A stretch of DNA of 64,000 nt, taken from Candidatus Dadabacteria bacterium. GTDB lineage: Bacteria > Desulfobacterota_D > UBA1144 > Nemesobacterales > Nemesobacteraceae. Below the pieces are notes generated by a model. It had not been told where the DNA came from. It worked only from the letters and a program-made list of their open reading frames with translations, and searched no databases. Made by a program: the position numbers and the translations under genes. Shown piece by piece: positions 1,701-62,393 of the stretch. Location: positions 4,165 to 68,164 of the forward strand of contig JAPPFE010000021.1 of the NCBI GenBank assembly GCA_028823955.1, read 5' to 3'. The first letter of the stretch is position 1. Each line of letters opens with the position of its first letter.

Positions 1701-1745
1701 ATTAATCCTCTCTCTTTAAACAAGCGCAAGATATATATCAGTAGT

Positions 1746-40947: not shown

Positions 40948-42126
40948 CTAGACCCGAAATTTCTTCGAACACCGGGTCAGGTTCTGGTTTCCGTCCCGCG
41001 TGACCAAGACCACGTCCTCTATCCTGACTCCCCCGAGACGCTCGTAGTAAAGACCGGGCTCTACAGTAACAACATTTCCCTCCTTAAGAATCTCGTTTCC
41101 GGGACCGATTCTCGGCGGCTCATGGATGTCAAGCCCCAGGCCGTGGCCCGTGGAATGTATGAACCCTTCGGGGCTTCCGGAACCCGAAGCCGTGGTAGGA
41201 AACCCCCGTTCCGTGAAGAAATCGATTACCGCGCCGTGCACGTCCTTTGATCTCACGCCGTCTTTTATCATGGAAAGCGCGATTTTCTGACCGCGCAAAA
41301 CGGTAGCGTACATTCTTAGAAGTTCAGCCGAGGGCTCGCCCTTAACAACCGTCCTCGTCATGTCGCCGAAGTAGCCGTTCTCCTGGGATCTCGGGAAAAT
41401 GTCGATCACCACCGGCCACCCGGCCTTAAGAGGCCCTGAGCCCTTCTCGTGGGGCATGGAGCCCTGAACCCCTCCGGCCACTATGGTGTTTGAAGCCAGA
41501 TACCCCCGTTCGGCAAGATAGGAGCTTATGGCGGAACGCACTATCTCGGAGGTAAGGGGCTTGCCGTCGCGGTAAAGCACGGAACCCTTCACCACTGAAT
41601 CCGATATAATTGAAATAGCAATCCTCATGGCCCATGCCGTAGCGTAAAGCGCCTTCTTTATGAGTGAAACTTCCGCCGGGGATTTCCTGAGGCGCCCGGG
41701 AAAAAGAAAATCCGTTTTCGCGGTCCTGACGAAAAAACCGGCTCCCCGGAGCGCGTCGGCATAGGAAACCGGAAAAAACCTCTGGACAACCAGGCTCCTT
41801 ACCCCTCTTTCCCTGAGAATTGCCGCGGCCACCTCGGCAATACCGGGCCTTTTTCTCTTGCCACCGCGAATCTTGGCAACCCACTCCCCAAGTGAGATGA
41901 CCCGCTCTACTCTTGCCTCTTTTTTCCCCCGCTCAAGCTCAAGGTCGCTGAGAACCAGTGTTCCTTCCCCGTCGTGCTCGAAAAAAATAACAGGGTCCGG
42001 AACGAAAAAGCCGGTTCTGTGGTAAAGGTCGGAATTGCGCTCGCTCGAATCGATTATAAGGTAGGCCGTTTTGCTCACGCCGAAAACTATACAATAAACC
42101 TGGGCAGCGGGGCAAACTAGCGCCAC
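40948..42126 (-). CDS. M24 family Xaa-Pro aminopeptidase
   Basis: 392 aa. Creatinase N-domain plus pita-bread fold with HSTGHGLGLDIHE. GTG start at 42126 lies 2 bp from direct-repeat copy 1. Start uncertain. Confidence 0.85.
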   Translation of the reverse strand: MALVCPAAQVYCIVFGVSKTAYLIIDSSERNSDLYHRTGFFVPDPVIFFEHDGEGTLVLSDLELERGKKEARVERVISLGEWVAKIRGGKRKRPGIAEVAAAILRERGVRSLVVQRFFPVSYADALRGAGFFVRTAKTDFLFPGRLRKSPAEVSLIKKALYATAWAMRIAISIISDSVVKGSVLYRDGKPLTSEIVRSAISSYLAERGYLASNTIVAGGVQGSMPHEKGSGPLKAGWPVVIDIFPRSQENGYFGDMTRTVVKGEPSAELLRMYATVLRGQKIALSMIKDGVRSKDVHGAVIDFFTERGFPTTASGSGSPEGFIHSTGHGLGLDIHEPPRIGPGNEILKEGNVVTVEPGLYYERLGGVRIEDVVLVTRDGNQNLTRCSKKFRV

Positions 42127-42128
42127 TG

Positions 42129-42144
42129 CTTACCGCTTACGCTT
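42129..42144. repeat. 16-bp direct repeat CTTACCGCTTACGCTT, copy 1 (left boundary of the inserted segment)
   Basis: Exact 16-mer read from the sequence. The second copy is at 45056-45071. Confidence 0.7.
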
Positions 42145-42579
42145 GTTAGCAATAAATTAATTGTCCAGTCTTAGATTTTTGGTTGCAGGAGGGATCTACG
42201 AACCGGACAGAGTTACTGCTTAACTGACTTCTGAACAAATGCTTGACAATGCACATTCATGTTAGTTATACCGACGTACGTACCTAGACCGACCTGGACA
42301 CCATCCGTAGATGAGGAAACCACCATCTACGAGGAATTTATGGAAGATGAAGAAAGCTAGCATTGCGTTCTATTGCACATATTGATATAGTGAGGAATGG
42401 GCGGTAATAAAATATGCTAGTAGGCTATCTGACCAGATACTAACATTCACCATTCACCCTTCGCATCTACTGCCCCGTTTGATATGGGCGATGAGAGAAA
42501 CTTTGCTATTTATTGAATTCTTTATCCTGTGTTTAGTTGAGGCAATGGTTTTGGCTTACTGTTAATGGAGGTTTTTATT

Positions 42580-43134
42580 GTGAAAAGATTTTTGCTTTTA
42601 TTGACGGCTTTCTTTGTCATAGGTTTGGCTTCTTGTGATGACGATAATGACTCAGACATGGAACCTGAGCCCACGACAATAAAGATGAAGGGTTTCTTTA
42701 ACAGCGTTGATGAAAACAACATGGATGACTGTCAGAGTGAGGACCTGAATTTGATAGTGGAAGATGAGGTAGTTGTTGGCAGTTCTAATTTTGCTGCATC
42801 AGGGGAAACGGGCGAAGTCTTTGATGAAGCGGTGTTCGGATATATAGGTATAAAGACTCAAAACCGTATAGCCGCCTCTTACGTAACGGCAACGAGAGAA
42901 GGGGAACTTGTTAATCCCGGAGTTCTCTATCTTAGGAAAAGAGGGGATTTATATGTTGGGTTTTGGGGTGGAGGAGCTACACGTCCGGAAGGTAATCCGT
43001 CCGTTGTTTGTCCGTACATAATGGTTCCGCAGGAGATGGTCGAGGAAGATGGCTGCGAAGCTGAAGCTTATGCAGAGTATCTTAAAAATGAGGATGGTTC
43101 AATAAAAGCCTGTGTAATGGCCCCAAATAGCTAA
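42580..43134 (+). CDS. acidic lipoprotein (cargo gene of the insertion)
   Basis: GGAGG SD then 7 nt then a GTG start at 42580 (the ORF-track ATG at 42565 overlaps the SD). Lipobox VIGLA-SC followed by a D/E-rich stretch and 4 further Cys. AT-rich codon usage. Confidence 0.6.
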   Translation: MKRFLLLLTAFFVIGLASCDDDNDSDMEPEPTTIKMKGFFNSVDENNMDDCQSEDLNLIVEDEVVVGSSNFAASGETGEVFDEAVFGYIGIKTQNRIAASYVTATREGELVNPGVLYLRKRGDLYVGFWGGGATRPEGNPSVVCPYIMVPQEMVEEDGCEAEAYAEYLKNEDGSIKACVMAPNS

Positions 43135-43219
43135 TCCGTTAAATGAGTGACGGACCTGTAATTACGATAACAGTGGAAATTCCCGAAACTGTTAGTCAAC
43201 TTCCTCCTGGCGATGACGA

Positions 43220-43357
43220 TCAGGAATTTGAAATATGTCTATATAATAAATGGAAAGCAGCTTCGACCAAATCTTGTAGCGGCTTCACGCCGTCTGAATG
43301 GCTTCGTAGATATGCTTGACCATATGCGTTCGTTTTTTCACATTTCTTACGATTCAT
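43220..43357 (-). CDS. small ORF (45 aa) with consensus Shine-Dalgarno
   Basis: AAGGAGG, 8 nt spacer, then ATG at 43357. Hand-translated as MNRKKCEKTNAYGQAYLRSHSDGVKPLQDLVEAAFHLLYRHISNS*. Below the ORF-track length cutoff. Confidence 0.25.
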   Translation of the reverse strand: MNRKKCEKTNAYGQAYLRSHSDGVKPLQDLVEAAFHLLYRHISNS

Positions 43358-43671
43358 AATTAAAACCTCCTTGAACTTCATTTGAGTTCATTGACTTAAA
43401 GACCTAATTACCATTTAATTTGTTTCCAGTACCGTTCTGAAAGCTTAAATCAAGCGAAAAAATTTAAAATCGAGTTTGCTTAAATTCACGGGTTGCCTGA
43501 CCGAGAGCTGCCTAATTTGCTTCCGCGCCAAAGAGCGCCTGTGTAGGACAAGCGCCTCGGTCAAGCACCACCGTGATAAATGTCCAACAGGAAGTTCGTG
43601 CCATCGAGCACCCGTACTGGATCCGACAAACATCACGGCTAACCCGAATTTACATGGAGGTATTAATTTAC

Positions 43672-44922
43672 ATGAAGAATCATGAATCTCTATTTTTTGC
43701 AGGCATTGACTGGGGGAGAAATTCCCACCAGGTCTGCGTTGTTGATCGCGAAGGTTCCGTCATCGGAGAAAAAAGCTTCAAGCACTCAGGAGGCGGTCTT
43801 TTGGAAATGGCTCAGTGGATGAGAAAGATCTCAGACTCTGAGGTCTGCGACATAGCAGCAGCTATTGAGGTAAACCACGGCCCTGTCGTGGAAAGTCTTG
43901 TTGAACAAGGCTTCCGGGTTTATTCCATAAACCCAAAACAGCTTGACCGCTTCAGGGACAGATTCTGCGTCTCAGGAGCCAAGGATGACAGAAGAGACGC
44001 CTTGGTACTGGCTTCGGCGCTTAGAACGGATCGTTATCACTTCCGCTTTATTGAACCCCAGGACCCCAATGTCATAATCCTGCGGGAATTCAACAGAACC
44101 AGAGAGGAGCTCACAGCAGAACACACCCGCTTGGTAAACCGTCTCCGCGGACTGCTCTTCAGGTATTACCCCCAGTTCGGCGAGCTTCTGGGCAAGAAGG
44201 TAAGCGCGTGGCACCTGGAACTATGGGAGCTTATGCCTTGTCCTGACTCTACAAAAGGAAAAAGAGTCTCAACGGTCAAGAACCTCCTCAGACGCAACGG
44301 AGTGAGGCGTTTTAACGCGAAGGAGGTGCTCAGGGTATTGCATGACAAGAAAATAGAATTAAACGATGCAACCACCGAGAGCTGCGTTTGGCACATAAGG
44401 AAAATCATTGAACGCATGAAAGTGATAGACCGCCAGATAAAAGAGACCGAAGACTCTATCAAACAGATTGTTGAGACCATGAACTCAAAACTCAAGACCG
44501 AGGGCCAAGGGCCAACCGACATTGAGATACTCATCTCCATTCCGGGGGTGGGACATGTAGTTCTCGCTACTTTGATTGCCGAGGCTTGGGACCTTATACG
44601 TCGTCGAGACCGCGAGGCGCTTCGATGTCTTGGAGGTACGGCCCCTGTAACGAGACAGTCGGGCAAAAGCAGACAGGTTGTTCTGCGAAGAGCGGTATGC
44701 AGGAACCTCGCCGACGCGTTTCATGTTCTGGGCAGGATAGCCGCAGTCAATGATCCGGCGAGCAAGGCCAAATATAAAGCGCTTCGCGCAAAAGGCCATC
44801 GTCATTGCAGATCTGTTCGTACTGTATGCGATCGTCTTTTATCGGTTGTCTGCGCTATACTGAAAAAGGGAGAATTGTTCGACAAGGAGTTCAAGAAACC
44901 CTTGGAGGATATTGCGGCGTGA
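43672..44922 (+). CDS. IS110-family transposase (DEDD RuvC-like N-domain plus Transposase_20 C-domain)
   Basis: N-terminal FAGIDWGRNSHQVCVVD. C-terminal IPGVGHVVLATLIAEAWD helix-hairpin-helix and a conserved Ser region. ATG at 43672 chosen (the ORF-track start at 43573 is an upstream extension). Confidence 0.9.
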   Translation: MKNHESLFFAGIDWGRNSHQVCVVDREGSVIGEKSFKHSGGGLLEMAQWMRKISDSEVCDIAAAIEVNHGPVVESLVEQGFRVYSINPKQLDRFRDRFCVSGAKDDRRDALVLASALRTDRYHFRFIEPQDPNVIILREFNRTREELTAEHTRLVNRLRGLLFRYYPQFGELLGKKVSAWHLELWELMPCPDSTKGKRVSTVKNLLRRNGVRRFNAKEVLRVLHDKKIELNDATTESCVWHIRKIIERMKVIDRQIKETEDSIKQIVETMNSKLKTEGQGPTDIEILISIPGVGHVVLATLIAEAWDLIRRRDREALRCLGGTAPVTRQSGKSRQVVLRRAVCRNLADAFHVLGRIAAVNDPASKAKYKALRAKGHRHCRSVRTVCDRLLSVVCAILKKGELFDKEFKKPLEDIAA

Positions 44923-45055
44923 ATGGAAACCAAGCAGGAATGAAATCGTCAGGGAAAGCAGAACAAAAGAACAGAGAAAATCGAGGAGGAATCTTAAAAA
45001 AGGAAATTCGCACTATACATAAATTTAAGCTTGCTAAAAAACAGGAAGTCCTACA

Positions 45056-45071
45056 CTTACCGCTTACGCTT
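45056..45071. repeat. 16-bp direct repeat CTTACCGCTTACGCTT, copy 2 (right boundary)
   Basis: Exact match to 42129-42144. Sits 78 bp upstream of erpA. Confidence 0.7.
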
Positions 45072-45148
45072 TGACAATCGTCCCCGGCAGATGTATTTTG
45101 TTAGTGGAGTGGTAAAAGAAATTTACACTGCGAGGAGGCAGAGGAATT

Positions 45149-45472
45149 ATGTTTTCCGTAACTCCCAAAGCCGTAGATGAAATAAAAAGGCTGCTTGCCG
45201 AAGACGACATCGAAAATGCGTTTCTCAGGGTAAGGATAGTGCCCGGGGGCTGTTCCGGGTTTTCCTACGAGATGGGATTTGACGACGAGACCGATGAAGG
45301 AGACAACTTGATCGAGTCCGACGGCATAAAGGTCGCTATCGACGAGATCAGCTACACCTATCTAGACGGATCGGTTCTTGATTTCAAGGATGGTCTTGAC
45401 GGAAAGGGCTTTGCAATCGAAAACCCTAACGCGACCGGTTCCTGCGGCTGCGGACAGTCTTTCACCGCATAG
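45149..45472 (+). CDS. erpA: iron-sulfur cluster insertion protein (HesB/IscA/ErpA family)
   Basis: 107 aa. Cys ligands in VPGGCSGF and the C-terminal GSCGCGQSF. Confidence 0.85.
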   Translation: MFSVTPKAVDEIKRLLAEDDIENAFLRVRIVPGGCSGFSYEMGFDDETDEGDNLIESDGIKVAIDEISYTYLDGSVLDFKDGLDGKGFAIENPNATGSCGCGQSFTA

Positions 45473-45744
45473 AAAAATCCGCAACATCCAGATTTTCCCC
45501 ACAAAACCTTTGCCGGATCCCGCGGCGAATCTTGACGCGGAGGATTCATTGAATGTGGACGGGCCGGAAAAGCAGGCTTTTTGTCTGTGGGGCGTTGTGT
45601 GGGGTAACGGATCATGGTTTCTGTATTTGCAAAAAACCGCAGAAACCAGATTCTCGGAAAAACGTATTCTTTTTCGGATAAACAGATTTGATTATATACT
45701 TATACAGGTAGCAGACCTGCTAGGCAGTCGGCACAGAGTACATC

Positions 45745-47592
45745 ATGGCATCAACGGCAAAAACACTTAAGGCCCACGAAGAAGCAAAAAGCTACGACAG
45801 GATCAAGTCAAAACACCTGATCGGAACCATCTTCACCGACTTTACTCCTTGGAACAAGCTCTACGGATTCAGAAACTTTATCCACGCCCCCTCAGGGAAG
45901 AAGATCGAGTTCGCTAACGATCCCGCCGTCATAGTAGGCACCGCAGTGTTTAAGGGCACCGGTGAGGAAGTGGCCGTAATAGCCCAGCAGACCCCCTCGA
46001 GCGAAAAGGAAAGAACTACGCTTAACTATGGAATGGTCAAGGCCGACGGCTACGGGCTGTCTTTGTGCATGATGGAATACGCAGAGCAGCACCGTCTCAA
46101 ACTCTACACGTTCATCGACACCATTGGTGGAGATCCCTATGAATACTCGGCCGAAAAGCTTCAGTCCTGGCTGATTTCCTACTGCCAGTCAAAGATGATC
46201 TCCATAAGAACGAAAACGATAACCACGGTGCTCGGGCTCGGGGGAAGCGGCGGCGCGATCGCCATACAGCTGGGACACAGGAGGCTCATGCTCTCGAGAG
46301 CCGAATATTCCGTAATAACGGCCGAAGGCTGTTCCGCCATCCTTTTCAGAAGTGCGGACAAAGTGGCGGAAGCGCTTGAGGTGCTGCAGCCCACGGCGAC
46401 CCACATGAAGAAATACGGAATAATAGACGAGATAGTAAAAGAGGCTCCTCTTGGAAGAAACAACTACATCCCATCGACACTTAAGAACCTGCAGGCATCC
46501 CTGACCGCCGCCTCCAATGAAGTTGACTGCTTCGACGTGAGGCACCTGCGCCAGGAACTGCGCAGGAAAATCGAGAAGTGTGGCCGCATAAAAAAGCGGG
46601 AGAGACTCTACGGGGGGATCGCAAAGAAAATAAAGGCCTGGCTCCCTAACTACTTCAGCGGAAGAAAGGAAAATCCCGATATCTCGGAAATGCAGATAGC
46701 CATCTACGGATCGGAACCTCACTTCTGCAACGACGAAAAAGACGGTCAGGGAAAAATTATACGCCCCGGTTGCAAGAAACAGCTTACGAAAAAGGAACTG
46801 CACGCGAACAATTCCTCGTGTCCTTACTGCGGCCGCCCCGAAGCGCTTAGTTCCGATGACTATCTGGACTTTCTTCTGGACGAGGCGTCCTTTCACGAAG
46901 TAGAACCGGGTCTTTCCCTTGAGGACGTGGATTCGGTCTACAAGTTCTTTAACTATTCGTCTTCAATACAGAAACTCGCCGGGAAAACCGACTCCAAGGA
47001 TTCCCTTGTAACGGGTTACGGGACCATGTTCGGCATACCCGTGGCGGTGGCGGTCTGCGACTTCCGTTTCATGGGCGGGTCAATGAGTTCCGTCTTCGGC
47101 GAGAAGATGAACAGGATCGTCAGCTACGCCATAGAAAACAGGCTTCCCCTGATAACGATAACGGTAAGCGGAGGAGCCAGGATGCAGGAAGGCACCGTGG
47201 CGCTGTATCAGATGGCGAAAACCATATCAGCGATTATGAGGCTTAAAGAAAACGGGCTTCCGAACATCTCCATACTCGGCCACCCGACGACCGGAGGAGC
47301 CCTCGCGAGCTACTCGGTCCAGGGAGACTTTATAATAGCGGAGAAAAGAGCGACAATCGCATTTGCCGGAGACCGGGTTGTAAAGCTCACAAGCGGCGGA
47401 CGCGGGGTCGATCCGAAAATAATGTCCTCTGAGTTCTACGAGGAAAGCGGCGGCGTTCACCTGGTGGTCGAAAGAAGCAAGATAAAACCCGCGATCTCCG
47501 GGCTGCTTAAGTTCAGGGGTTTTAAAAACAGTCTGGACACCGGGGCATTTCACCAGCGCCTGGACGATGGATTCGAAGACGACTGGCTTTAG
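45745..47592 (+). CDS. accAD: fused acetyl-CoA carboxylase carboxyltransferase, AccA-like N-half and AccD-like C-half
   Basis: 615 aa. Residues ~100-250 match the AccA core (FIDTIGGDP ... LGLGGSGGAIA ... SVITAEGCSAIL). Residues ~340-560 match AccD, including the Zn ribbon (CxxC ... CPYCG) and FMGGSMSSVFGEK. Confidence 0.8.
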   Translation: MASTAKTLKAHEEAKSYDRIKSKHLIGTIFTDFTPWNKLYGFRNFIHAPSGKKIEFANDPAVIVGTAVFKGTGEEVAVIAQQTPSSEKERTTLNYGMVKADGYGLSLCMMEYAEQHRLKLYTFIDTIGGDPYEYSAEKLQSWLISYCQSKMISIRTKTITTVLGLGGSGGAIAIQLGHRRLMLSRAEYSVITAEGCSAILFRSADKVAEALEVLQPTATHMKKYGIIDEIVKEAPLGRNNYIPSTLKNLQASLTAASNEVDCFDVRHLRQELRRKIEKCGRIKKRERLYGGIAKKIKAWLPNYFSGRKENPDISEMQIAIYGSEPHFCNDEKDGQGKIIRPGCKKQLTKKELHANNSSCPYCGRPEALSSDDYLDFLLDEASFHEVEPGLSLEDVDSVYKFFNYSSSIQKLAGKTDSKDSLVTGYGTMFGIPVAVAVCDFRFMGGSMSSVFGEKMNRIVSYAIENRLPLITITVSGGARMQEGTVALYQMAKTISAIMRLKENGLPNISILGHPTTGGALASYSVQGDFIIAEKRATIAFAGDRVVKLTSGGRGVDPKIMSSEFYEESGGVHLVVERSKIKPAISGLLKFRGFKNSLDTGAFHQRLDDGFEDDWL

Positions 47593-51682: not shown

Positions 51683-52864
51683 TTACAAGGTATTCTTCCC
51701 AATCGAGATTTTTCCGAGAAACGTGGCATCCCGGGCTCCCGTAACTGCTGGCACGTTCGTCCGGTTTCCACACACGGTTTCATTCGCAAGCACCGCGAAT
51801 CCTACAGCTTCCTTGGCATCTGCGGGAATGCCGTATTCATCCGAGAGGCAAAGCCGCGTTGGGGCGAGCTTTTCACGAAGCCTCGAGACCATTACGGGGT
51901 TTCTGGCGCCGCCGCCGCTCAGCACGACTTCTTCCACATCCGCACGGGGGTAAATGAATCTTTCATAGGCAGAGACTATGGAGCAGGCAGTAAACTCGAC
52001 GAGGGTGCGCAGGAGATCGGGAAGAGATACCCCTTTTTTCTGGGCAAGGGAAAAAAGCCTCCCCGCCATCCGTTCCCCGAAAAGCTCCCTGCCGGTCGAT
52101 TTAGGGGGTTCTATATCAAGGTACGGATTTTTCATGAGCCTGCGGAAAATGTCCTTATTAACCGAACCCTCCCCCGCTATTGTGCCGTCCTCATCGAAAC
52201 TCCTCTCGCCCCCCGAGGCAAGGCGCACCACCGAGTCCACCAGGGAATTGCCGGGTCCCGTATCGAAAGCCAGAAGCTCCCCGAGTTTTTTCGTGACCAG
52301 AGTGCAGTTGGAAATGCCCCCTATGTTATGGGCTATTACGTTTTTACCGGTTCCGGAAAACAGCAGGTAGTCGACGTAGGGGATAAGGGGCGCTCCTTCT
52401 CCGCCCGCCGCCATATCCCTAGTCCTGAAATCTCCCACCGTGGTAATTCCCGTAGCCTCGCAGATAACGTCCGCTTCGCCCAGCTGAAGGGTCGAGGAAA
52501 CCTCCTGTCCCAGAGAAGGGGGATTATGAAAAACCGTCTGGCCGTGGGTGCCCACCAGGTCAATGTCGGTCGTTTTGAGTGCCGCCTTCCGCAGAAGATC
52601 AAAGACCGCCGCAGAAAACTCCTGGCCGAGCAGGAAATTAAGATCGGACAGTGAGGCGGTGTTCAGGGCGCTGGGAGAGAGAAGGAGGTTCCTTGCGTCA
52701 TCGGAGTATTCCCGGCAGATAAAGTCCTCAACCTGTACTTCTGTATCCTCTCCCGAGTCGCGAATCCTTACCAGCGCCGCGTCAATACCGTCCATCGAAG
52801 TCCCGGAAATGAGACCGACAGCCAGTTTTTCCTTCTTCGAAATTATCGGACGAAGCCAGTTCAC
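51683..52864 (-). CDS. anmK: anhydro-N-acetylmuramic acid kinase
   Basis: 393 aa. N-terminus GLISGTSMDGIDAALV typical of AnmK. Confidence 0.9.
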   Translation of the reverse strand: MNWLRPIISKKEKLAVGLISGTSMDGIDAALVRIRDSGEDTEVQVEDFICREYSDDARNLLLSPSALNTASLSDLNFLLGQEFSAAVFDLLRKAALKTTDIDLVGTHGQTVFHNPPSLGQEVSSTLQLGEADVICEATGITTVGDFRTRDMAAGGEGAPLIPYVDYLLFSGTGKNVIAHNIGGISNCTLVTKKLGELLAFDTGPGNSLVDSVVRLASGGERSFDEDGTIAGEGSVNKDIFRRLMKNPYLDIEPPKSTGRELFGERMAGRLFSLAQKKGVSLPDLLRTLVEFTACSIVSAYERFIYPRADVEEVVLSGGGARNPVMVSRLREKLAPTRLCLSDEYGIPADAKEAVGFAVLANETVCGNRTNVPAVTGARDATFLGKISIGKNTL

Positions 52865-52922
52865 GCGGAAAAAGTTACCTGATGAAAAAAGGATTTAGCA
52901 GACGGAATGAGCATGGGGCCAG

Positions 52923-53855
52923 TTACGAATTCCCCGCCGAGCGGGATATGCCCCTTAGGGTTTTCTTCAAGTACCCGCCGTTTTCCCGCAGCACTTTGAC
53001 CGACTCTTCGGGCAAGAGGCCGCCGAGTTTCATTACCACGGCAACCTTGAGATTTCCGCCGGCTTTCTGGAAAAGCGAGGCAGCCTCCTCTTCCCCCACG
53101 CCACATATGTCCATTATGATTCTCCTTGCCCTGTCGACAAGCTTTGACGATGTGGGCTTAAGGTCAACCATCAGGTTTCCGTAAGTTTTCCCGAGAAGTA
53201 CCATCGCGGTCGTCGTAACCATGTTAAGGACCATCTTGGTAGCGGTAGCGGCCTTGAGCCTGGTGGAACCCACTATCACTTCAGGACCGACAAGAAGGGG
53301 TATGACCAAGTCGGCCGGGGTGTTCTCTGGCTCGCTGCAGCATACAAGTATGCTTGTACAACCAACCGTCTTTGCATACTCAAGAGCTGATATCACAAAC
53401 GGCGTACCGGAGCTCGCCGCGATTCCCAAGACCACGTCGTCCCCCGAGAGTTTTTTGTCACGGAGGGCTTCCACGGAAGCCGTAGCGGAATCCTCAGCAC
53501 CCTCGACCGAGTTCCATACTGCATCCCGCCCTCCCGCCATAACCGCCTGCACCGTTTCGGGATCCGTTCCGAAGGTAGGCGGGCATTCGGCAGCTTCCAT
53601 TACCCCGAGCCGCCCGCTTGTCCCCGCCCCGACGAAAAAGACCCTGCCGCTACGCTCAAGGGAGCGGAAAACCATTTCCGCTGCCTGGGAGATGGAATCT
53701 TTTTCCCTGGAAACGGCCTCAAACGCCGCTTGGTCTTCCCCGCTTACAAGATCGATGATCTCGGAACATGAAAGTTCATCGATACTGACCGTCCTCGGGT
53801 TTGCTTTCTCTGTGAGCAGGTGTCCTGTCCGGCGAGTCTTTTCCACAGGAAACAT
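52923..53855 (-). CDS. murQ: N-acetylmuramic acid 6-phosphate etherase
   Basis: 310 aa. SIS domain with GAGTSGRLG. Confidence 0.9.
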   Translation of the reverse strand: MFPVEKTRRTGHLLTEKANPRTVSIDELSCSEIIDLVSGEDQAAFEAVSREKDSISQAAEMVFRSLERSGRVFFVGAGTSGRLGVMEAAECPPTFGTDPETVQAVMAGGRDAVWNSVEGAEDSATASVEALRDKKLSGDDVVLGIAASSGTPFVISALEYAKTVGCTSILVCCSEPENTPADLVIPLLVGPEVIVGSTRLKAATATKMVLNMVTTTAMVLLGKTYGNLMVDLKPTSSKLVDRARRIIMDICGVGEEEAASLFQKAGGNLKVAVVMKLGGLLPEESVKVLRENGGYLKKTLRGISRSAGNS

Positions 53856-53947
53856 TATATCTGAAACATGCGCCGCTTATCCGGAGAACCGTCCGCGGTG
53901 CCGGGTTTGATTTGTAAGCGATATCCGTATAGAGTGCTTTGGATATT

Positions 53948-54021
53948 GCGGGTGTAGCTCAGCTGGCCAGAGCATTGGCTTCCCAAGCCAAGGGTCGCGG
54001 GTTCGAATCCCGTCGCCCGCT
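53948..54021 (+). tRNA. tRNA-Gly (anticodon CCC)
   Basis: Hand-folded cloverleaf. Acceptor stem GCGGGTG/CGCCCGC. D-arm GCTC..GAGC. Anticodon stem TTGGC/GCCAA with loop TTCCCAA. T-arm GCGGG-TTCGAAT-CCCGT. CCA not encoded. Confidence 0.85.
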
Positions 54022-54148
54022 CTCACTCTCTGAAGGCTGTATTTGAATTCTGGTTGTCGCACTAATATCAAATCCGCCCGATTTGTATTGATGATTCTGC
54101 TTTTCCCAATCCGAAAAAATTAAGTTCGTGGAAAAACATTTAGAAATA

Positions 54149-55369
54149 TCATAAGAGGGTAAATTGTCGGCGAATCTCTCCAGTACCAACAAACTGAGAG
54201 AGCAGGCGGTAGTTTCCTTGTTCATGGCGAACCCTGCCAGCCACTATTGCCGGATGAATATTTAAAGCTCTTGCCAGATTCATAACGGCTACTGCGGTAG
54301 TTGGCTGCTTGCTGGCCTCGCTGGTATCCCAAACTGCTTTTGGTATTAATGCTTCCTTAACCCATTGGTCTGCTTGTGTCTCCATTTCATCTTGTAACAT
54401 AGATCTGGCTCCGCCCAAACTTAAATCATCAAAAAAGGCGTCCCCTTCGTTATTGTCAATATGAAGTCCAACATGGGCTAACTCATGTAAAAGACAGAAC
54501 CAGAAATTATCAATCCGGTCATAACGTAGAGTAAGACCAATGACTGGCCTCCCGTCACTGCCTCGCAGTGCCGCCCCATCAAGATATGTCTTCGGCAGAT
54601 GCCTGACTGTCACAAAAGAAATACCGTTGTTCGCCAAGAACTCCGCCGCAAGTCGCGGTCCTTCTTCCGACCAGCTCATTTGTGCAAGCTGACTCAGAAA
54701 ATCCAACGTTACGGTTCCGGGTTTGTAAGCCACCTCGGGACGATTCTCGTTCGCCGCACCCAACACCTTCCAGCACCATGCCTTGAGCGCATACGGATCC
54801 GTTTTGGCATTTAGGCGACGGTAATCATTCTTTCGGTAAAAAGCAGCATAAGCCACATCCCGACCACCTGCACGTTCAATCAGTTCACCAATAATTTCTT
54901 CAGCGCGCTCCTTCAAGTTGGGAACACTTGGAATCCACTCCCACTTCGCCATAGTTTTGAGTGGGAACCGGCCCCACTGAATATCGTCCTCGGGATTCTC
55001 AAGCCCTGCATCCGAATTGCGAATCAGCACTTCGGCTGGAATACCAATATGTTCATGAAGAGCTCTCGCCATAGGCATAGTTATGGCGCGTTTCCCGGAA
55101 AGCACTTCGGAAACCCTCGCACGGCTTCCTATGAAAGGAACCAAGTCGCGCTGATTCAAACCTGCCTGCTCCATGCGAAATTTGATCGCTTCAATAGGGT
55201 CTGGATACCCCATTGGCACATGTTTGCTCTCGTAGAGCTCAACAAGGTCAACCAGAACATCAAGTTCTGCGCCCTCGGGACTATCTAATTCGGCTTCAAA
55301 GATTTCGTCGATACGAGCCAAGGCAGCTTCATAGTCTTCCTCGGTACGAATTGGTTTTACGTTAACCAT
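54149..55369 (-). CDS. higA: HigA antitoxin (XRE HTH) fused to an ImmA/IrrE-type HEXXH zinc metallopeptidase domain
   Basis: Residues 1-128 align along their length with E. coli HigA (YgjM), ending in the HTH RVSEVLSGKRAITMPMARAL. Residues ~130-406 are an extra domain containing HELAHVGLH (HExxH) in ImmA/IrrE (COG2856) context. GGAGGAGG SD. Starts 2 nt after the higB stop. Confidence 0.8.
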   Translation of the reverse strand: MVNVKPIRTEEDYEAALARIDEIFEAELDSPEGAELDVLVDLVELYESKHVPMGYPDPIEAIKFRMEQAGLNQRDLVPFIGSRARVSEVLSGKRAITMPMARALHEHIGIPAEVLIRNSDAGLENPEDDIQWGRFPLKTMAKWEWIPSVPNLKERAEEIIGELIERAGGRDVAYAAFYRKNDYRRLNAKTDPYALKAWCWKVLGAANENRPEVAYKPGTVTLDFLSQLAQMSWSEEGPRLAAEFLANNGISFVTVRHLPKTYLDGAALRGSDGRPVIGLTLRYDRIDNFWFCLLHELAHVGLHIDNNEGDAFFDDLSLGGARSMLQDEMETQADQWVKEALIPKAVWDTSEASKQPTTAVAVMNLARALNIHPAIVAGRVRHEQGNYRLLSQFVGTGEIRRQFTLL

Positions 55370-55371
55370 TT

Positions 55372-55665
55372 TTATACCTCCTCCGCATCTATACGATCAT
55401 ACTGCGCGTGGGTTCCCACGAAACGTATATAAACCACGCGGTATTTATAGTTAATTTTCACGACTAATCTGTACTTATTGCCCTTTATGTTAAAAACCAC
55501 TCGATTGTCCCCCAAGATACTGGCACTACGGTACTTTTCTTTTACCTCGGCAGGAGTATCCCAATCTTCTTTCTCAACCTCGCGATACCAACTGAGAAGT
55601 GATTGCTCTGCATCTTTATAACACTCATAAAATTCCCGCAACCTTTTCTTGGCTATAATTCTCAT
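55372..55665 (-). CDS. higB: type II toxin HigB (YgjN-type, RelE/ParE superfamily mRNA interferase)
   Basis: 97 aa. Similar along its length to E. coli HigB (MRIIAKKRL ... NIKGNKYRLVVKINYKYRVVYIRFVGTHAQYD). Toxin-first higBA order. Confidence 0.85.
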   Translation of the reverse strand: MRIIAKKRLREFYECYKDAEQSLLSWYREVEKEDWDTPAEVKEKYRSASILGDNRVVFNIKGNKYRLVVKINYKYRVVYIRFVGTHAQYDRIDAEEV

Positions 55666-55678
55666 GTAGCAACTTATA

Positions 55679-55714
55679 TCGCTCCCAATTTAATTTGAAG
55701 TACTTCGCTCCCAA
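55679..55714. promoter_or_regulatory. two copies of TCGCTCCCAA (55679-55688 and 55705-55714) in the higBA promoter region; candidate HigA operators
   Basis: Direct 10-bp repeat read from the sequence. The proximal copy lies between putative -35 (TTCAAA) and -10 (TATAAG) elements on the minus strand. Confidence 0.4.
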
Positions 55715-56011
55715 ACTGATACAATTCTAACTTCTTTCATTCAAATGTCAAACAGTAAAATTTTGGTACAGACTTCATATAGAAAAAGAGGCTTAGTTCT
55801 TGTTTCCTAGACGAAGTGTTGCATTTAAAAAACTACGGGGTAATGCAAATTGGCATTAAAAGCGATCGATTGAAATAACACAACAGCTATGGAGCCGTTA
55901 ACATTAAAAACGCTGTTAATTTAAGGTTTGTGACAAATGCAGTTTAATTCACGTCTCAACTTCGAGAGTTCTAAAATCAAACGATTTATCGAATTGAAAA
56001 ACCAGAACCAA

Positions 56012-56683
56012 TCAAGACCTTTTCTTAAAAACCAGATACTTAAGGCCGAAGAAGTTCCAGAAAAGCGTGAATATCAAGGATACCGCAGCTCCTATGTTCG
56101 CCCACACCGTGGACGAGATGGAGCCCCCCGAACCTCCAAATTCGGCAACCACGTACGAAGCAACCGTAACGTTTATCACGAGCCCCACGCCCACGACGGC
56201 GAAGAACCTTATGAACTGGTTCATCCATCCCTCGACCTCCTTGCTGCGAAACGTCCAGAACTTGTTCCACGCATAGCCGTTAACGTTTGCCAGAATAAAG
56301 GAAGCCGCCTTGAAAACCGAGTAGAGGATCCCCTCCGCCACCCCGGAATAATAGATGAGCAGGTTAAGTATTCCGAAGTCGATTACGAGGTTAGAAAAAC
56401 TTATGACGCAGAACTTTGCGAACTGGACCAGCGAGGACCAACGGGAGAAAAACCCGAGAAAAAGAAAGTGGATCACGGGACTCAGTATGAACATCCCCCA
56501 CTGCACTCCCACAAGCTTGGAGTACACTCCGGGCATCTCGGCGCGAAGCGTGAAGAAGAGAAGCAGTATGAAAAACGCGTTTATCTCGCTTATTACGAAT
56601 AAAACGGGATAATCCGATCTGGTCATGGGGGTTTTCGGGGAAAAAAAGGGTTGTATCCCGAAGCAAGAAGCTTCGGGATACAA
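56012..56683 (-). CDS. GtrA-family membrane protein
   Basis: GtrA signature ANVNGYAWNKFWTFR and 4 TM helices in the C-terminal ~130 aa. The long N-terminal extension suggests the true start is an internal ATG (56536 or 56494). Confidence 0.55.
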   Translation of the reverse strand: MYPEASCFGIQPFFSPKTPMTRSDYPVLFVISEINAFFILLLFFTLRAEMPGVYSKLVGVQWGMFILSPVIHFLFLGFFSRWSSLVQFAKFCVISFSNLVIDFGILNLLIYYSGVAEGILYSVFKAASFILANVNGYAWNKFWTFRSKEVEGWMNQFIRFFAVVGVGLVINVTVASYVVAEFGGSGGSISSTVWANIGAAVSLIFTLFWNFFGLKYLVFKKRS

Positions 56684-56709
56684 CCCTGAAAAATGTACTT
56701 ACCTTACCT

Positions 56710-57483
56710 TCAGTTAACTACCTGGTACTGGGGGTAGACGAAGCTTCCCTTGGTCCAGATCGCCCAGGTCGGATCCGCAAGCGGCTTAAGCTTGTGAAGC
56801 GAATGTCCCTCGGGAGCCGTGAACGTTATTTTCGGGTTAGCCATTGATACCGTTCCCCCGTTCCACGGGATCGGGTACTTGACCACTCCCTTGTCCTCCA
56901 TAAACCCGAAGTAGTTAAGGTGTCCTCCGCCGAATCCTCCGAGTTCGCTTCCGACCTCGGCCGTGGCCTCGATCATCGACTGTCCGCCGATTTCAAGCTT
57001 TGTCTTAAGCACTCCGTTCTCTACCACGGTGGTGGTCATTCCCTCCTGAGCGGGAATTCCGACAGGCTTGGTGAACTCCCTCATCGTGGGAGAGCTGTTG
57101 TAGTAATGAACGAAGTACCTTCCGGGGTAGGTTATATCGGAATCCATCACGTACGAGTTGTGACCTTCAAGCTCAATCGTCAGATAGGTGAGCGTGTACG
57201 CCCCGAATCCCGAGGTCTGGTTCTTGTCGGGAACCGTGTACATGTTTATGACCACGTGATTGTTCGGATGGGGCTTAAGACCCGCCGGAAGCATCGATTT
57301 CAAAACCTCCGGGTCGGCCTTGTAGGCTGCGATGAACATCCAAGCACCGGTTACCAGCTGCGGGCCCGGAAGCGAAAACGACTTGGCCGGGGCCGGCGGG
57401 GCCTCACCCGAGTGCGTGGCCGTGAGCGGAACGGCACAGAAAACCAAAGCAATCAAAAAAACCAAAAACCTTCTAGCTAACAT
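56710..57483 (-). CDS. hypothetical exported protein
   Basis: 257 aa with signal peptide (LVFLIALVFCAVPLTA). Confidence 0.5.
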   Translation of the reverse strand: MLARRFLVFLIALVFCAVPLTATHSGEAPPAPAKSFSLPGPQLVTGAWMFIAAYKADPEVLKSMLPAGLKPHPNNHVVINMYTVPDKNQTSGFGAYTLTYLTIELEGHNSYVMDSDITYPGRYFVHYYNSSPTMREFTKPVGIPAQEGMTTTVVENGVLKTKLEIGGQSMIEATAEVGSELGGFGGGHLNYFGFMEDKGVVKYPIPWNGGTVSMANPKITFTAPEGHSLHKLKPLADPTWAIWTKGSFVYPQYQVVN

Positions 57484-57552
57484 CTTTATTACCTCCTTAA
57501 GACTTTCTGATTCAATATCAAGACGTCGCCGGAAGCAAGGTCCGCTTGAACC

Positions 57553-58329
57553 CTAATGCTCTCCCGACGCCCTCTTCTCCTTTTCTTCTATCATATACCT
57601 AACGGCGGAGCGAACAAACCTGTTTCTCTCCGCCTCCCCCAGCACTCCTTTAAGGGCGTCGTGAACCGAGGGATCGACTATAAGTGCCCCAAGCGAACCT
57701 TCTCCTTCCCTGATCATCCGGGAAATCTCGGCCAAGTTGGAGGAGAAGCTCCGCATGTCGGCCGCAAACTGCTCGTCGTAGATGAGAGTATGCAGGAAAT
57801 CCTCCCGCTTCTCATCCGCAAACGCCCCCACTATCTTGTCGAGACTCCTGGAGATGGACGTGAGGTTAGTAACGAATTCCTCTGACTGGCTTATTATCTC
57901 CTGCATCTCGGGCGACGTGTAACCCCTGATCACGATCCCGTCGCGGGCCTTGCCTATGCTCTCTCCCTGGCCGGGAACGATCTCGACGAACTTCGCCCCC
58001 AGAAGTCCTTCGGTCTTGATCGTGGCGTGGGAGTCCTTCGAGATTCTGGAAAGCGCCCGCTTGTTGATTTCCATTATGACCTGAACCTTCCCGAGGGAAG
58101 AATCGTCCGAGAAACGGATGGTCGACACGGATCCCACTCCCACTCCCGAGAGTCGCACATAGGCACCCTCGAGCAACCCAGCCGAGTTGTCAAAGTAGGT
58201 CTTTACCTTGTACTCCCTCTCAAAGAGCTCTTCCTGGCCGCTTATCGTGAAAACTCCGTAAACGAATATAGCGATCGATGCGAGGACGAAAACCCCTACC
58301 TTGAGTCGGGCCGATTTCTGCTTTTCCAT
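57553..58329 (-). CDS. MCE-domain protein (MlaD-like)
   Basis: N-terminal TM anchor plus MCE domain (VRLSGVGVGSVSTIRF). C-terminal extension. Confidence 0.75.
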   Translation of the reverse strand: MEKQKSARLKVGVFVLASIAIFVYGVFTISGQEELFEREYKVKTYFDNSAGLLEGAYVRLSGVGVGSVSTIRFSDDSSLGKVQVIMEINKRALSRISKDSHATIKTEGLLGAKFVEIVPGQGESIGKARDGIVIRGYTSPEMQEIISQSEEFVTNLTSISRSLDKIVGAFADEKREDFLHTLIYDEQFAADMRSFSSNLAEISRMIREGEGSLGALIVDPSVHDALKGVLGEAERNRFVRSAVRYMIEEKEKRASGEH

Positions 58330-58480
58330 CTGCGCTCACCCGGCGCGGCCGACACGCCTGATCTCTGATATTGTACCATATTGTTTGCAAGCAGAGAATT
58401 GAAAATCCGGGCGACTGTGATAACCTGAATTATTCCTTTCCATCCGAGGCACGCCCCGATTCCGAAAAGGAGTTTATTTC

Positions 58481-60046: not shown

Positions 60047-60209
60047 GCACCTGCCGGTTAAAGAAAGGATTGGGCGATATTCTTTCTTTACGGAAGCTCT
60101 AAAGAAAGCTTTTGCGGTTTTCCTTTCTTAAGGAGACCTCCAAGAAGAGGGTGCTTTCGCTAGAGATAAGCAACGGAAAACGCTTAGCGCTTGGTGACCT
60201 CGCGATATT

Positions 60210-60449
60210 TCACCTCTCTTGACAGCCAGAACTCCGCACTGCCGCCAACGCCCGTTCCAGTCGAAACGCGGCATCCTCCGTAATCGCCGCCTTGCCTTGT
60301 ACAAGCCGGCTTACGTGCTTTGTCGTATAACCGGTACGGTCTGCGAACTTAGCCTGAGCCCAGTTTTTCTCTTCGAGAATGTCAAGAATCGTATCTCCAG
60401 GCGGAGACAAACGCCATTTCGGTTCAAACCGATCAAGATTTTCAGTCAT
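60210..60449 (-). CDS. HigA-like XRE-family antitoxin (COG3093 / VapI type), orphan
   Basis: 79 aa. HTH AQAKFADRTGYTTKHVSRLVQGKAAIT. AGGAGA SD 8 nt upstream. No partner toxin ORF in any frame upstream (60450-60740). Confidence 0.65.
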   Translation of the reverse strand: MTENLDRFEPKWRLSPPGDTILDILEEKNWAQAKFADRTGYTTKHVSRLVQGKAAITEDAAFRLERALAAVRSSGCQER

Positions 60450-62312: not shown

Positions 62313-62393
62313 GCAAGTGCCCCCAAATCCAAGTTTGGGCATGACCATTGTAAAAAGAAAAAAGCCGCTTTTAACCTCGACCGGCGGGGGGAA

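What the first reader, a model, noticed from the sequence alone, without database searches (positions are those of the whole stretch)
42129..45071. Perfect 16-bp direct repeats (CTTACCGCTTACGCTT) bracket a 2.9 kb AT-rich insertion containing an IS110-family transposase plus cargo
The 16-mer occurs at 42129-42144 and 45056-45071. The first copy is 2 bp from the M24 peptidase start. The second is 78 bp upstream of erpA. So the native peptidase/erpA divergent intergenic region appears to have been split by the insertion. A 16-bp exact match at this spacing is very unlikely by chance. IS110-family (DEDD) elements normally make no long target duplications or very short ones, and do not carry cargo. 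So either a larger unit (lipoprotein plus small ORF plus IS) moved by site-specific recombination with a 16-bp core, or an IS inserted next to a pre-existing islet. The insertion must also have displaced the peptidase promoter.
Basis: seen in the sequence. Interest (0 to 1): 0.55.

Follow-up and report, generated by a model that had tools for sequence, protein, structure and literature searches.

The report
Bridge-RNA IS nested in older islet
The 16-bp repeats are real, but they flank a 1.3-kb lipoprotein islet that exists on its own in sister strains. The IS110-family element is a separate, ordinary RNA-guided insertion sitting 4 bp inside that islet's right end.

Summary
CTTACCGCTTACGCTT occurs only at 42129-42144 and 45056-45071. 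Nine related Candidatus Dadabacteria contigs have one copy of it between the M24 peptidase gene and erpA, with no insert.

The 2.9-kb insert is two nested elements, not one unit.

1. A 1,287-bp AT-rich islet (42145-43427 plus 45052-45055) carries a lipoprotein gene. Two sister contigs (L024, L027) have this islet with both 16-mers and no IS. So the repeat belongs to the islet.

2. A 1,624-bp IS110-group element (43428-45051) is flanked by a 3-bp core, TCC. Its 244-nt left end encodes a bridge RNA. Two internal loops match the target (TAATTTGTTTCC|TACAC) and the element's own joined ends. In seven independent relatives the target guides change in step with the flanks, and the stems show compensatory changes.

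How the islet inserted is unresolved. It has 5'-TGT...ACA-3' ends, a roughly 21-bp imperfect terminal inverted repeat (end-anchored P about 1e-4 to 6e-4) and a 15/16-bp duplication. These features resemble the ISTde1 subgroup of the IS1202 family, but the islet has no transposase and no second copy was found.

Overall: a new member of a known IS kind, plus a small islet scar. Interest is low to moderate.

The parts
42129..42144 (+). Left copy of the 16-bp direct repeat CTTACCGCTTACGCTT. It is the duplicated target of the islet; the last T could belong to the islet, which would make the duplication 15 bp.
   Evidence: Single copy at empty sites. Both copies are present in the IS-free islets L024 and L027.
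42145..43427 (+). Main part of the 1,287-bp AT-rich islet. The last 4 bp, TACA, are now at 45052-45055, separated from the rest by the IS.
   Evidence: L024 1-1838 matches window 41590-43427 at 98.7% and continues directly into TACA + 16-mer. L027 shows the same. Absent from 9 relatives. No match in the plasmid or phage collections.
42144..42163 (+). Candidate left terminal inverted repeat of the islet, TGTTAGCAATAAATTAATTG (5'-TGT end).
   Evidence: An end-anchored alignment against the reverse complement of the right end scores 10, with P about 1e-4 (random internal pairs) to 6e-4 (shuffled ends). An unanchored local test was not significant.
42580..43134 (+). Lipoprotein gene of 184 aa. It has a signal peptide with an LASC lipobox and four conserved Cys. 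Function unknown. This is the islet's cargo.
   Evidence: ORF. Homologues at 56-73% identity sit at other chromosomal loci in relatives, and only the CDS is homologous. No Pfam family. The AF2 model has pLDDT 57, is beta-rich, and has no significant fold match.
43143..43381 (.). Small overlapping ORFs of unknown status: 58 aa on + (43143-43319) and 53 aa on - (43220-43381).
   Evidence: No family hits. Conserved in L024.
43411..43427 (+). Right end of the islet up to the IS: CCATTTAATTTGTTTCC. It is the candidate right inverted repeat together with TACA at 45052-45055. Its last 12 nt (43416-43427) are the left half of the IS target.
43425..43427 (+). Left copy of the core TCC at the IS junction.
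   Evidence: The empty site in L024 and L027 reads ...AATTTGTTTCC^TACACTTACC. TCC is present at both junctions in the window.
43428..45051 (+). IS110-group insertion sequence, 1,624 bp. The left end is 244 nt, the transposase CDS follows, and the right end is 129 nt. It ends with the second TCC (45049-45051).
   Evidence: Boundaries come from the IS-free sites and from 99.5%-identical copies with a different left flank (L020, L021). Relatives are 1,586-1,624 bp.
43483..43639 (+). Bridge RNA core: a target-binding loop and a donor-binding loop on conserved stems.
   Evidence: RNAalifold consensus. 35 pairs, 95.5% of cells paired, 6 pairs with compensatory changes, slid controls at most 42%. Covariance model hit of 171.7 bits, the only one in the window; the model also finds modules not used to build it in L014.
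43513..43524 (+). Left target guide, TAATTTGCTTCC.
   Evidence: Matches the left target TAATTTGTTTCC at 11/12, and TTGCTTCC in L020 at 8/8.
43541..43548 (+). Right target guide, GTGTAGGA.
   Evidence: Its reverse complement TCCTACAC equals the core plus the right flank, 8/8. The equivalent guide tracks the right flank in L013, L015-L019, L031 and L041.
43586..43597 (+). Left donor guide, AACAGGAAGTTC.
   Evidence: Matches the right end of the IS, AACAGGAAGTCC, at 11/12 (10 contiguous).
43614..43621 (+). Right donor guide, GTACTGGA.
   Evidence: Its reverse complement TCCAGTAC equals the core plus the first 5 nt of the left end, 8/8.
43672..44922 (+). IS110-family DEDD/Tnp RNA-guided recombinase, 416 aa. 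The RBS GGAGG lies about 10 nt upstream.
   Evidence: PF01548 4e-36 and PF02371 4.4e-12. NF033542 at 191.6 bits. The nearest solved structure is the IS621 transposase 8wt6, E 2e-6. 4,267 homologues, the closest in Ca. Dadabacteria.
45052..45055 (+). TACA: the last 4 bp of the islet (its ...ACA-3' terminus) and the start of the right half of the IS target.
45056..45071 (+). Right copy of the 16-bp direct repeat. Its first C is the last base of the IS target. Its last T is the first base of the erpA -35 box.
45071..45099 (+). erpA promoter-like site, TTGACA-17-TATTTT. It is intact downstream of both insertions.
   Evidence: 10 of 12 matches. Conserved in relatives.

Best explanation
The 2.9-kb insert is two independent mobile-DNA events nested at one site.

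Event A. A 1,287-bp AT-rich islet carrying a promoter, a lipoprotein gene and small ORFs entered the M24/erpA spacer and duplicated 15-16 bp of target. This produced the two 16-mers. Inferred: the islet is a transposase-less passenger cassette moved in trans by a DDE transposase that makes long staggered cuts. It has 5'-TGT...ACA-3' ends and a roughly 21-bp imperfect terminal inverted repeat, like the ISTde1 subgroup of the IS1202 family.

Event B. A 1,624-bp IS110-group element inserted into the islet's right end, 4 bp from the right 16-mer, by bridge-RNA-guided recombination. The RNA is encoded in the 244-nt left end.
- Its target-binding loop pairs with TAATTTG(T/C)TTCC | TACAC.
- Its donor-binding loop pairs with the joined ends of the IS, AACAGGAAGTCC | AGTAC.
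- Strand exchange at the shared core (TCC, or CC) leaves the core on both sides.

Shown: the anatomy, the boundaries, both kinds of empty site, the guide matches and the covariation. Inferred by analogy with IS621: the chemistry, a circular intermediate, and a junction promoter (TTGCTA-17-TACCGT across the joined right and left ends).
For: Sites empty of everything: 9 relatives with one 16-mer.

Islet without IS, with both 16-mers and an intact IS target: L024 and L027.

L027 (no IS) and L028 (with IS) differ at only 2 of the variable sites in about 3.2 kb of left flank plus islet. So the IS comes and goes independently of the islet.

IS without the islet: L020 and L021 are 99.5% identical from 43420 to 45054 but have a Rieske-gene left flank. 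More distant copies (L013-L019, L031, L041) share only the IS.

Guides:
- left target guide 11/12;
- right target guide 8/8;
- left donor guide 11/12 (10 contiguous);
- right donor guide 8/8.

In 7 independent relatives the reverse complement of the right target guide equals TCC plus the right flank. L013 and L015 match 9/9, L041 8/9, L017 8/9, L018 8/9, L016, L019 and L031 7/9. The left target guide tracks the left flank.

Structure: 35 pairs, 95.5% paired, 6 compensatory pairs, slid controls at most 42%.

Protein: PF01548 + PF02371, and NF033542 'IS110 family RNA-guided transposase'.

Architecture (long left end holding the RNA, two internal loops, shared core) is as described for the IS110 group in PMC11208160.

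Islet ends: end-anchored inverted repeat with P about 1e-4 to 6e-4. TGT/ACA ends with 15-17-bp repeats are a documented combination for ISTde1-type IS1202-family elements.
Against: For the IS:
- No Rfam family was hit.
- No RNA, circle or activity data exist.
- The left target guide has one mismatch (C against T) to this site.
- The junction -10 (TACCGT) is weak.

For the islet mechanism:
- There is no transposase in or near it.
- Every islet copy found is at this one locus.
- No other sequence resembling its ends occurs in the window or in 42 loci.
- The inverted repeat is AT-rich and gapped, was first spotted by eye, and failed an unanchored local test.
- One repeat position varies between strains.
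- A 16-bp att core of a decayed integrative element would give the same junctions.

The order of events cannot be polarised. The IS could already have been in the islet when the islet arrived, and been lost precisely in L024 and L027.
Confidence: 0.85

Rival explanations
1. One 2.9-kb unit (lipoprotein + small ORF + IS) moved as a whole by site-specific recombination through a 16-bp core. The IS110 recombinase would be the mobilising enzyme. This is the reader's first alternative, and it is analogous to ISPpu9 'modular' circles.
For: The two 16-mers bracket the whole insert in the window, L001 and L026. There is a precedent for IS110-family elements co-mobilising an adjacent module (ISPpu9/ssr9, PMC12288879). 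IS110 excision can be precise, so the IS-free islets could in principle be derived.
Against: The islet keeps both 16-mers without the IS (L024, L027). The IS occurs elsewhere without the islet. The IS has its own precise boundaries, its own core and guides that match its local target. The islet's left end has no donor-like site: there is no TCCAGTACC-like sequence in 42145-43424, and guide-like matches to the 16-mer site are at chance level. The bridge RNA guides do not match the 16-mer site.
Confidence: 0.03
2. The islet is the remnant of an integrative element, such as a decayed island or a cis-mobilisable element, that integrated through a tyrosine or serine recombinase. The 16-mer would be the shared att core, and the recombinase gene has since been deleted or acts in trans. 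The IS part is as in the best explanation.
For: Identical repeats sit flush with the insert, with a single copy at empty sites. The islet is AT-rich and looks foreign. It is found at only one locus, as expected for site-specific integration.
Against: No recombinase gene lies in the islet or in the parts of the window examined. The ORF next to tRNA-Gly is an HTH/M78 protein paired with HigB, not an integrase. The site is not a tRNA or other classical att target. This model does not predict the TGT...ACA ends or the end-anchored inverted repeat.
Confidence: 0.25
3. The two 16-mers are native regulatory motifs or a chance repeat, not an insertion scar.
For: An exact 16-mer pair somewhere in 64 kb is not rare (62 of 200 shuffles). 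The right copy abuts the erpA -35 box. The 16-mer is partly conserved among relatives.
Against: All 9 islet-free relatives have exactly one copy at the homologous position, and the second copy appears only together with the islet.
Confidence: 0.02
4. The islet was captured by illegitimate recombination: a staggered break, fill-in and ligation of a stray fragment. This would give a one-off 16-bp duplication with no dedicated mobility machinery.
For: It is a single event at a single locus. No enzyme gene is present. Homologous lipoprotein genes at other loci share only the CDS.
Against: The end-anchored inverted repeat and the TGT/ACA termini are not expected under this model. Clean 16-bp fill-in duplications are uncommon in bacteria (own knowledge).
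Confidence: 0.15

Closest known systems
IS621 and other IS110-group bridge-RNA elements (Durrant et al. 2024, PMC11208160; Hiraizumi et al. 2024, PMC11208158)
   Same: It has a DEDD + Tnp recombinase and a long left end upstream of the CDS that encodes a structured RNA. The RNA has two internal loops. In each loop the 5' side is identical to the left half-site and the 3' side is complementary to the core plus the right half-site. A short core is repeated at both junctions, the empty site is precise, there are no terminal inverted repeats, and guides and targets covary across relatives.
   Different: The protein is only distantly related (E 2e-6 to 8wt6; 416 against 326-328 aa). The core is CC/TCC rather than CT. 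No Rfam family was hit. The host is an uncultured Ca. Dadabacteria lineage. Nothing has been tested experimentally.
ISPpu9 modular transposition (PMC12288879)
   Same: An IS110-family element with a neighbouring non-transposase module. This is the closest precedent for the 'IS plus cargo' idea.
   Different: In ISPpu9 the module is bounded by IS-end-like boxes and forms circles with or without tnp. Here the islet has no donor-like ends, and the islet and the IS are each found without the other.
[quoted passage not shown]
   Same: A DEDD-family IS sits a few bp inside the end of another inserted element. 16 of the 17 target nucleotides lie in the islet's terminal 21 bp.
   Different: A second site of the same IS (L020, L021) is at the 3' end of a Rieske-type gene, not at an element end. 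So there is no evidence that element ends are targeted as a class.
ISTde1 subgroup of the IS1202 family (bioRxiv 10.1101/2022.12.17.520857; PMC10132070)
   Same: 5'-TGT...ACA-3' termini, imperfect terminal inverted repeats of about 20-26 bp, and unusually long direct target repeats of 15-17 bp.
   Different: The islet has no transposase at all, carries only a passenger gene, is known at a single site, and its inverted repeat is only suggestive. It resembles what such an enzyme would leave behind. It is not a member of the family.
Mobile insertion cassettes (MICs) and MITE-like passenger elements (own knowledge)
   Same: Short DNA bounded by IS-like inverted repeats and a target duplication, carrying non-transposase genes and presumed to be mobilised in trans.
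   Different: No multiple copies and no cognate IS have been identified.

Membership tests
IS110 family, IS110 group (bridge-RNA-guided recombinase elements) | Recombinase with an N-terminal DEDD (RuvC-like) domain and a C-terminal Tnp domain | tested here: met
   PF01548 4e-36 and PF02371 4.4e-12. NF033542 at 191.6 bits against a cutoff of 140. IS621 transposase is the best PDB hit.
IS110 family, IS110 group (bridge-RNA-guided recombinase elements) | Left non-coding end longer than the right, with the RNA encoded upstream of the CDS | tested here: met
   Left end 244 nt (43428-43671), right end 129 nt (44923-45051). RNA at 43483-43639. Criterion from PMC11208160.
IS110 family, IS110 group (bridge-RNA-guided recombinase elements) | RNA with two internal loops that match the target and the donor (joined right and left ends) around a shared core | tested here: met
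   Left target guide 11/12, right target guide 8/8, left donor guide 11/12, right donor guide 8/8. Structure 95.5% paired with 6 compensatory pairs.
IS110 family, IS110 group (bridge-RNA-guided recombinase elements) | Guides covary with the flanking target across related elements | tested here: met
   Seven independent relatives. The reverse complement of the right target guide equals TCC plus the right flank at 7-9 of 9 positions, and the left target guide tracks the left flank.
IS110 family, IS110 group (bridge-RNA-guided recombinase elements) | No terminal inverted repeats; only a 2-3-bp core repeated at the junctions; precise empty site | tested here: met
   TCC on both sides. L024 and L027 read ...TTTGTTTCC^TACAC....
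IS110 family, IS110 group (bridge-RNA-guided recombinase elements) | Circular intermediate with a promoter rebuilt across the joined right and left ends | not testable with these tools
   The sequence allows TTGCTA (45031-45036) - 17 nt - TACCGT (43430-43435) in a circle. The -10 is weak. No reads are available.
IS110 family, IS110 group (bridge-RNA-guided recombinase elements) | Match to a curated RNA family | tested here: not met
   No Rfam 15 hit at E up to 1 in 41500-46000. This says nothing if no bridge-RNA model of this subtype is curated.
IS1202 family, ISTde1 subgroup (considered for the islet) | Encodes an IS1202-type DDE transposase | tested here: not met
   The islet ORFs have no transposase hit in Pfam or NCBIfam. 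So the islet is not a member; at most it is a non-autonomous derivative.
IS1202 family, ISTde1 subgroup (considered for the islet) | Termini 5'-TGT ... ACA-3' | tested here: met
   TGTTAGC...CCTACA if the ambiguous T at 42144 is assigned to the element. Criterion.
IS1202 family, ISTde1 subgroup (considered for the islet) | Imperfect terminal inverted repeats of about 20-26 bp | tested here: inconclusive
   End-anchored score of 10, P about 1e-4 to 6e-4. The unanchored local test was not significant. AT-rich, gapped and found post hoc.
IS1202 family, ISTde1 subgroup (considered for the islet) | Direct target repeats of 15-17 bp | tested here: met
   15 or 16 bp. Criterion.
IS1202 family, ISTde1 subgroup (considered for the islet) | Several copies at different sites, each with its own repeat | tested here: not met
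   All 13 cluster members traced lie at the M24/erpA locus. No similar ends occur elsewhere in the window or in 42 loci. Whole genomes could not be searched.
Integrative element with an att core (tyrosine or serine recombinase) | Identical core at both ends and a single core at the empty site | tested here: met
Integrative element with an att core (tyrosine or serine recombinase) | Recombinase gene in the element or adjacent to it | tested here: not met
   None in the islet. 51978-63956 holds no integrase. The rest of the window was not scanned by profile.
IS110 'IS + cargo' composite (ISPpu9-like module) | Cargo bounded by IS-end-like donor sequences and co-occurring with the IS | tested here: not met
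   No donor-like site in the islet. Islet found without the IS, and IS without the islet.

The most novel reading that the evidence does not exclude
The islet is a transposase-less passenger cassette of an ISTde1-like (long-duplication, TGT/ACA) transposon lineage not yet described in Ca. Dadabacteria. The IS110 element's bridge RNA would be programmed against that cassette's terminal repeat. An RNA-guided IS would then home to the end of another mobile element and could ride along whenever the cassette is mobilised.
Probability: 0.15. Interest if true: 0.5.

Novelty: new member of a known kind. Interest (0 to 1): 0.3.

Why it matters
The case shows that one pair of flanking repeats can mislead. 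Repeats that seem to bracket 'an IS with cargo' actually belong to an older, separate insertion. The IS110 element behaves as the bridge-RNA model predicts.

The locus gives a clean natural example of that model in an uncultured symbiont lineage. Filled and empty sites occur in near-identical strains, the core is TCC/CC, and seven related elements have target guides that change in step with their insertion sites.

The islet's 15/16-bp duplication and TGT/ACA ends hint at long-duplication DDE transposition of a passenger gene in this lineage. That would be worth a genome-wide search.

Nothing here changes what is known about either mechanism.

Tried and rejected
- Other copies of the IS or the 16-mer in the window: none.
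- Rfam over 41500-46000 at E up to 1: no hit.
- Exact-protein look-up of the 184-aa lipoprotein: not on record. It was found through its cluster instead.
- JGI metagenome scans with the lipoprotein and with the 36-nt target-binding-loop sequence: nothing.
- Islet DNA against plasmids and phages: no match.
- Guide-like matches inside the islet to its own empty site or to a hypothetical circle junction: at chance level.
- A bridge-RNA-like module in the islet: none with the covariance model.
- A donor-like TCCAGTACC site at the islet's left end: none.
- Ungapped and local tests for terminal inverted repeats of the islet: not significant. Only the end-anchored test was.
- Homology of the islet flanks to the loci that hold lipoprotein homologues (mnmE-pheT in L022 and L023; L025): only the CDS matches.
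- An integrase next to tRNA-Gly: not there. It is a HigB / HTH-M78 pair.
- Lipoprotein fold: pLDDT 57 and no significant PDB match.
- The Rieske locus of L020 in the window: absent. Its empty site could not be fetched because the look-ups were exhausted.
- Polarising IS gain against IS loss with flanking SNPs: not resolvable.


Full report
**Observation.** The 16-mer CTTACCGCTTACGCTT is present exactly at 42129-42144 and 45056-45071 and nowhere else in the window, even with two mismatches. An exact 16-mer direct pair somewhere in 64 kb appears in 62 of 200 shuffles. I estimate about 0.045 such pairs within 3 kb per window. The region between the copies is AT-rich (34-48% GC against 52.6% overall). 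It holds an IS110-family transposase gene (PF01548 + PF02371; NF033542 'IS110 family RNA-guided transposase', 191.6 bits).

**Empty sites.** Looking up the exact ErpA protein returned ten loci from related Candidatus Dadabacteria assemblies (organism names). In nine of them the M24 peptidase gene and erpA are 144 bp apart. The spacer holds a single copy of the 16-mer, exact in L006 and L012 and slightly diverged in the others, followed by TGACAATCG. So an insertion did split the native divergent spacer, and the 16-mer was duplicated in the process.

**The insert is two things.** Homologous IS copies align to the window only from about 43420/43428 to 45051/45054.
- These include 99.5%-identical copies with a different left flank, a Rieske/KshA_C gene (L020, L021). 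They also include 58-85%-identical copies in other genomes (L013-L019, L031, L041).
- Many relatives assemble as contigs of about 1.6 kb, and one Logan contig breaks inside the left end.
- The left 1.3 kb is therefore not part of the IS.

The lipoprotein's 90%-identity cluster led to contigs that carry the islet at this same locus.
- L024 (a TARA scaffold) and L027 (99.1-99.7% identical to the window) have M24, the 16-mer, the islet, TACA, the 16-mer and erpA, with no IS and with both 16-mers.
- Their junction reads ...CCATTTAATTTGTTTCC^TACACTTACCGC...
- Relative to it, the window has exactly 43428-45051 (1,624 bp) inserted, with TCC on both sides.
- So the 16-bp repeat brackets the 1,287-bp islet (42145-43427 plus 45052-45055). 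The IS has its own 3-bp junction repeat.
- L027 (no IS) and L028 (with IS) are almost the same haplotype, with 2 differences in about 3.2 kb, while IS-bearing contigs fall into three haplotypes.
- The IS has therefore been gained or lost very recently and independently of the islet. The direction cannot be polarised.

**The IS is a bridge-RNA element.** The 244-nt left end contains four segments that match the two DNA partners.
- TAATTTGCTTCC (43513-43524) equals the left half of the target, TAATTTGTTTCC, at 11/12. It matches L020's left flank TTGCTTCC at 8/8.
- GTGTAGGA (43541-43548) is the reverse complement of TCCTACAC, which is the core plus the right half of the target.
- AACAGGAAGT(TC) (43586-43597) equals the right end of the IS, AACAGGAAGTCC.
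- GTACTGGA (43614-43621) is the reverse complement of TCCAGTAC, which is the core plus the first bases of the left end.

Each pair of guides flanks a short hairpin inside a longer stem. This gives two internal loops, the layout described for IS621 and the IS110 group (PMC11208160).

In an alignment of seven distinct relatives the scaffold and the donor guides are conserved while the target guides differ.
- The proposed 35-pair structure is 95.5% paired.
- Six pairs show compensatory changes.
- Slid-partner controls reach at most 42%.

In every relative the reverse complement of the right target guide equals TCC plus the bases that follow the right end. Examples are L013 TCCATGGGA, L015 TCCCCCTCA and L041 TCCACTTT. 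The left target guide matches the bases before the left end.

A covariance model built from the alignment finds one module in the window and none in the islet. It also recovers modules it was not trained on.

The mechanism I commit to is RNA-guided recombination between the joined IS ends and the target at the TCC/CC core. The anatomy is shown. The chemistry, the circular intermediate and a junction promoter (TTGCTA-17-TACCGT across the joined ends) are inferred by analogy. The protein is only distantly related to IS621 (E 2e-6), and Rfam has no matching family.

**The islet.** It carries a conserved lipoprotein gene of 184 aa, with a lipobox and four invariant Cys.
- Homologues at 56-73% identity sit at other chromosomal loci in relatives, and only the CDS is homologous.
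- The fold model is poor and unassignable.
- The islet has no recombinase, no bridge-RNA-like module, no donor-like end, and no match in plasmids or phages.

How it inserted is the open point. If the ambiguous T at 42144 is assigned to the element, it reads 5'-TGTTAGCAATAAATTAATTG...CCATTTAATTTGTTTCCTACA-3'.
- That gives TGT/ACA termini and a 15-bp duplication.
- It also gives a gapped inverted repeat of about 21 bp. This is significant only when the alignment is anchored at the ends (P about 1e-4 to 6e-4). Local and ungapped tests were not significant.
- This combination is documented for the ISTde1 subgroup of the IS1202 family, which has TGT ends and 15-17-bp repeats.

I therefore favour, at roughly 0.4, a transposase-less cassette moved in trans. 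A decayed integrative element with a 16-bp att core is next, at about 0.25, followed by a one-off illegitimate capture at about 0.15. The islet fails membership of the IS1202 family because it has no transposase and only one known site.

- The peptidase start is probably 42078, not 42126 (376-aa calls in relatives; frame-breaking indels upstream).
- A promoter-like site at 42115-42086 (minus strand) remains between the left 16-mer and that start. The erpA promoter-like site at 45071-45099 is intact. Promoter displacement is therefore not supported.
- The 'whole unit moved through a 16-bp core' option is essentially excluded.

**Verdict.** The IS is a new member of a known kind. The islet is a small scar of uncertain origin, and that is the only unusual aspect.

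Noticed in passing
L020:1-3700 and L021:1-3453: The same IS (99.5% identical) sits at the 3' end of a Rieske/KshA_C-type gene in two other MAGs. In L020 the contig runs on into TACA + 16-mer + erpA. So L020 is either an assembly chimera across IS copies or a real IS-mediated rearrangement. The left flank there, TTGCTTCC, matches the left target guide perfectly.
   Followed up: partly
L015:3610-3755, L018:3610-3755, L016:3267-3413, L017:3267-3413: Related IS110 elements carry a second, degenerate bridge-RNA-like module upstream of the main one (68-70 bits). It has an intact donor-binding loop, but the target-binding loop lacks its 3' guide.
   Followed up: partly
L014:2214-5319: Nested IS110 relatives. 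A left end with its bridge RNA (2268-2417) is separated from its transposase by an inverted second element that has its own bridge RNA (3718-3871, minus strand).
   Followed up: no
window 42407-42517: All differences between the window and the otherwise identical L001 (4 SNPs and a 7-bp CATTCAC copy-number change) cluster in 110 bp upstream of the lipoprotein gene. At the four SNP sites the window carries the L026 alleles. This looks like a short recombination patch or an assembly mosaic.
   Followed up: partly
window 42215-42270: Inside the islet, ACTGCTTA...TTGACAAT repeats, in the same order, two 8-mers of the native erpA upstream region. It is followed by TTGACA-18-TATACC, a likely promoter for the lipoprotein gene. 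The number of such matches is at chance level.
   Followed up: partly
window 43391-43419: TTGACT-17-TTTAAT at the islet's right end points into the left end of the IS. It could drive the bridge RNA and the transposase in the integrated state.
   Followed up: no
window 45502-45690: A 189-bp stretch between erpA and the acetyl-CoA carboxylase gene is absent from L003, L008 and L009. In the window it is bordered by CAGATTT on both sides.
   Followed up: partly
window 53948-55665: tRNA-Gly(CCC) is followed by a HigB-toxin gene (55372-55665) and an HTH_3/Peptidase_M78 gene (54149-55369). This is a toxin-antitoxin-like pair, not an integrase.
   Followed up: partly
window 45745-47592: A single 615-aa ORF combines ACCA (carboxyltransferase alpha) and Carboxyl_trans (beta) domains. 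It is an apparent fused AccA/AccD, conserved in all relatives.
   Followed up: no
window 1745-1770 and 1845-1870: A 25-bp exact direct repeat (TTATACTAATTTAGCTAAATTTAGT) at 100-bp spacing in an intergenic region. Tandem Repeats Finder did not call it.
   Followed up: partly
L027:2500-2602: The IS-free contig has about 100 extra bases, with a roughly 55-bp overlap of the alignments, inside the M24 peptidase gene. No peptidase gene was called there. It is a possible duplication or pseudogene, or an assembly artefact.
   Followed up: no
L008:8544-12324: One relative carries DarT, an ADP-ribosylglycohydrolase and a UvrD-like helicase downstream of the carboxylase gene, where other relatives have ferredoxin and SSF transporter genes. 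L004, L006 and L012 have a giant SRCR/cadherin/fn3 autotransporter there.
   Followed up: no
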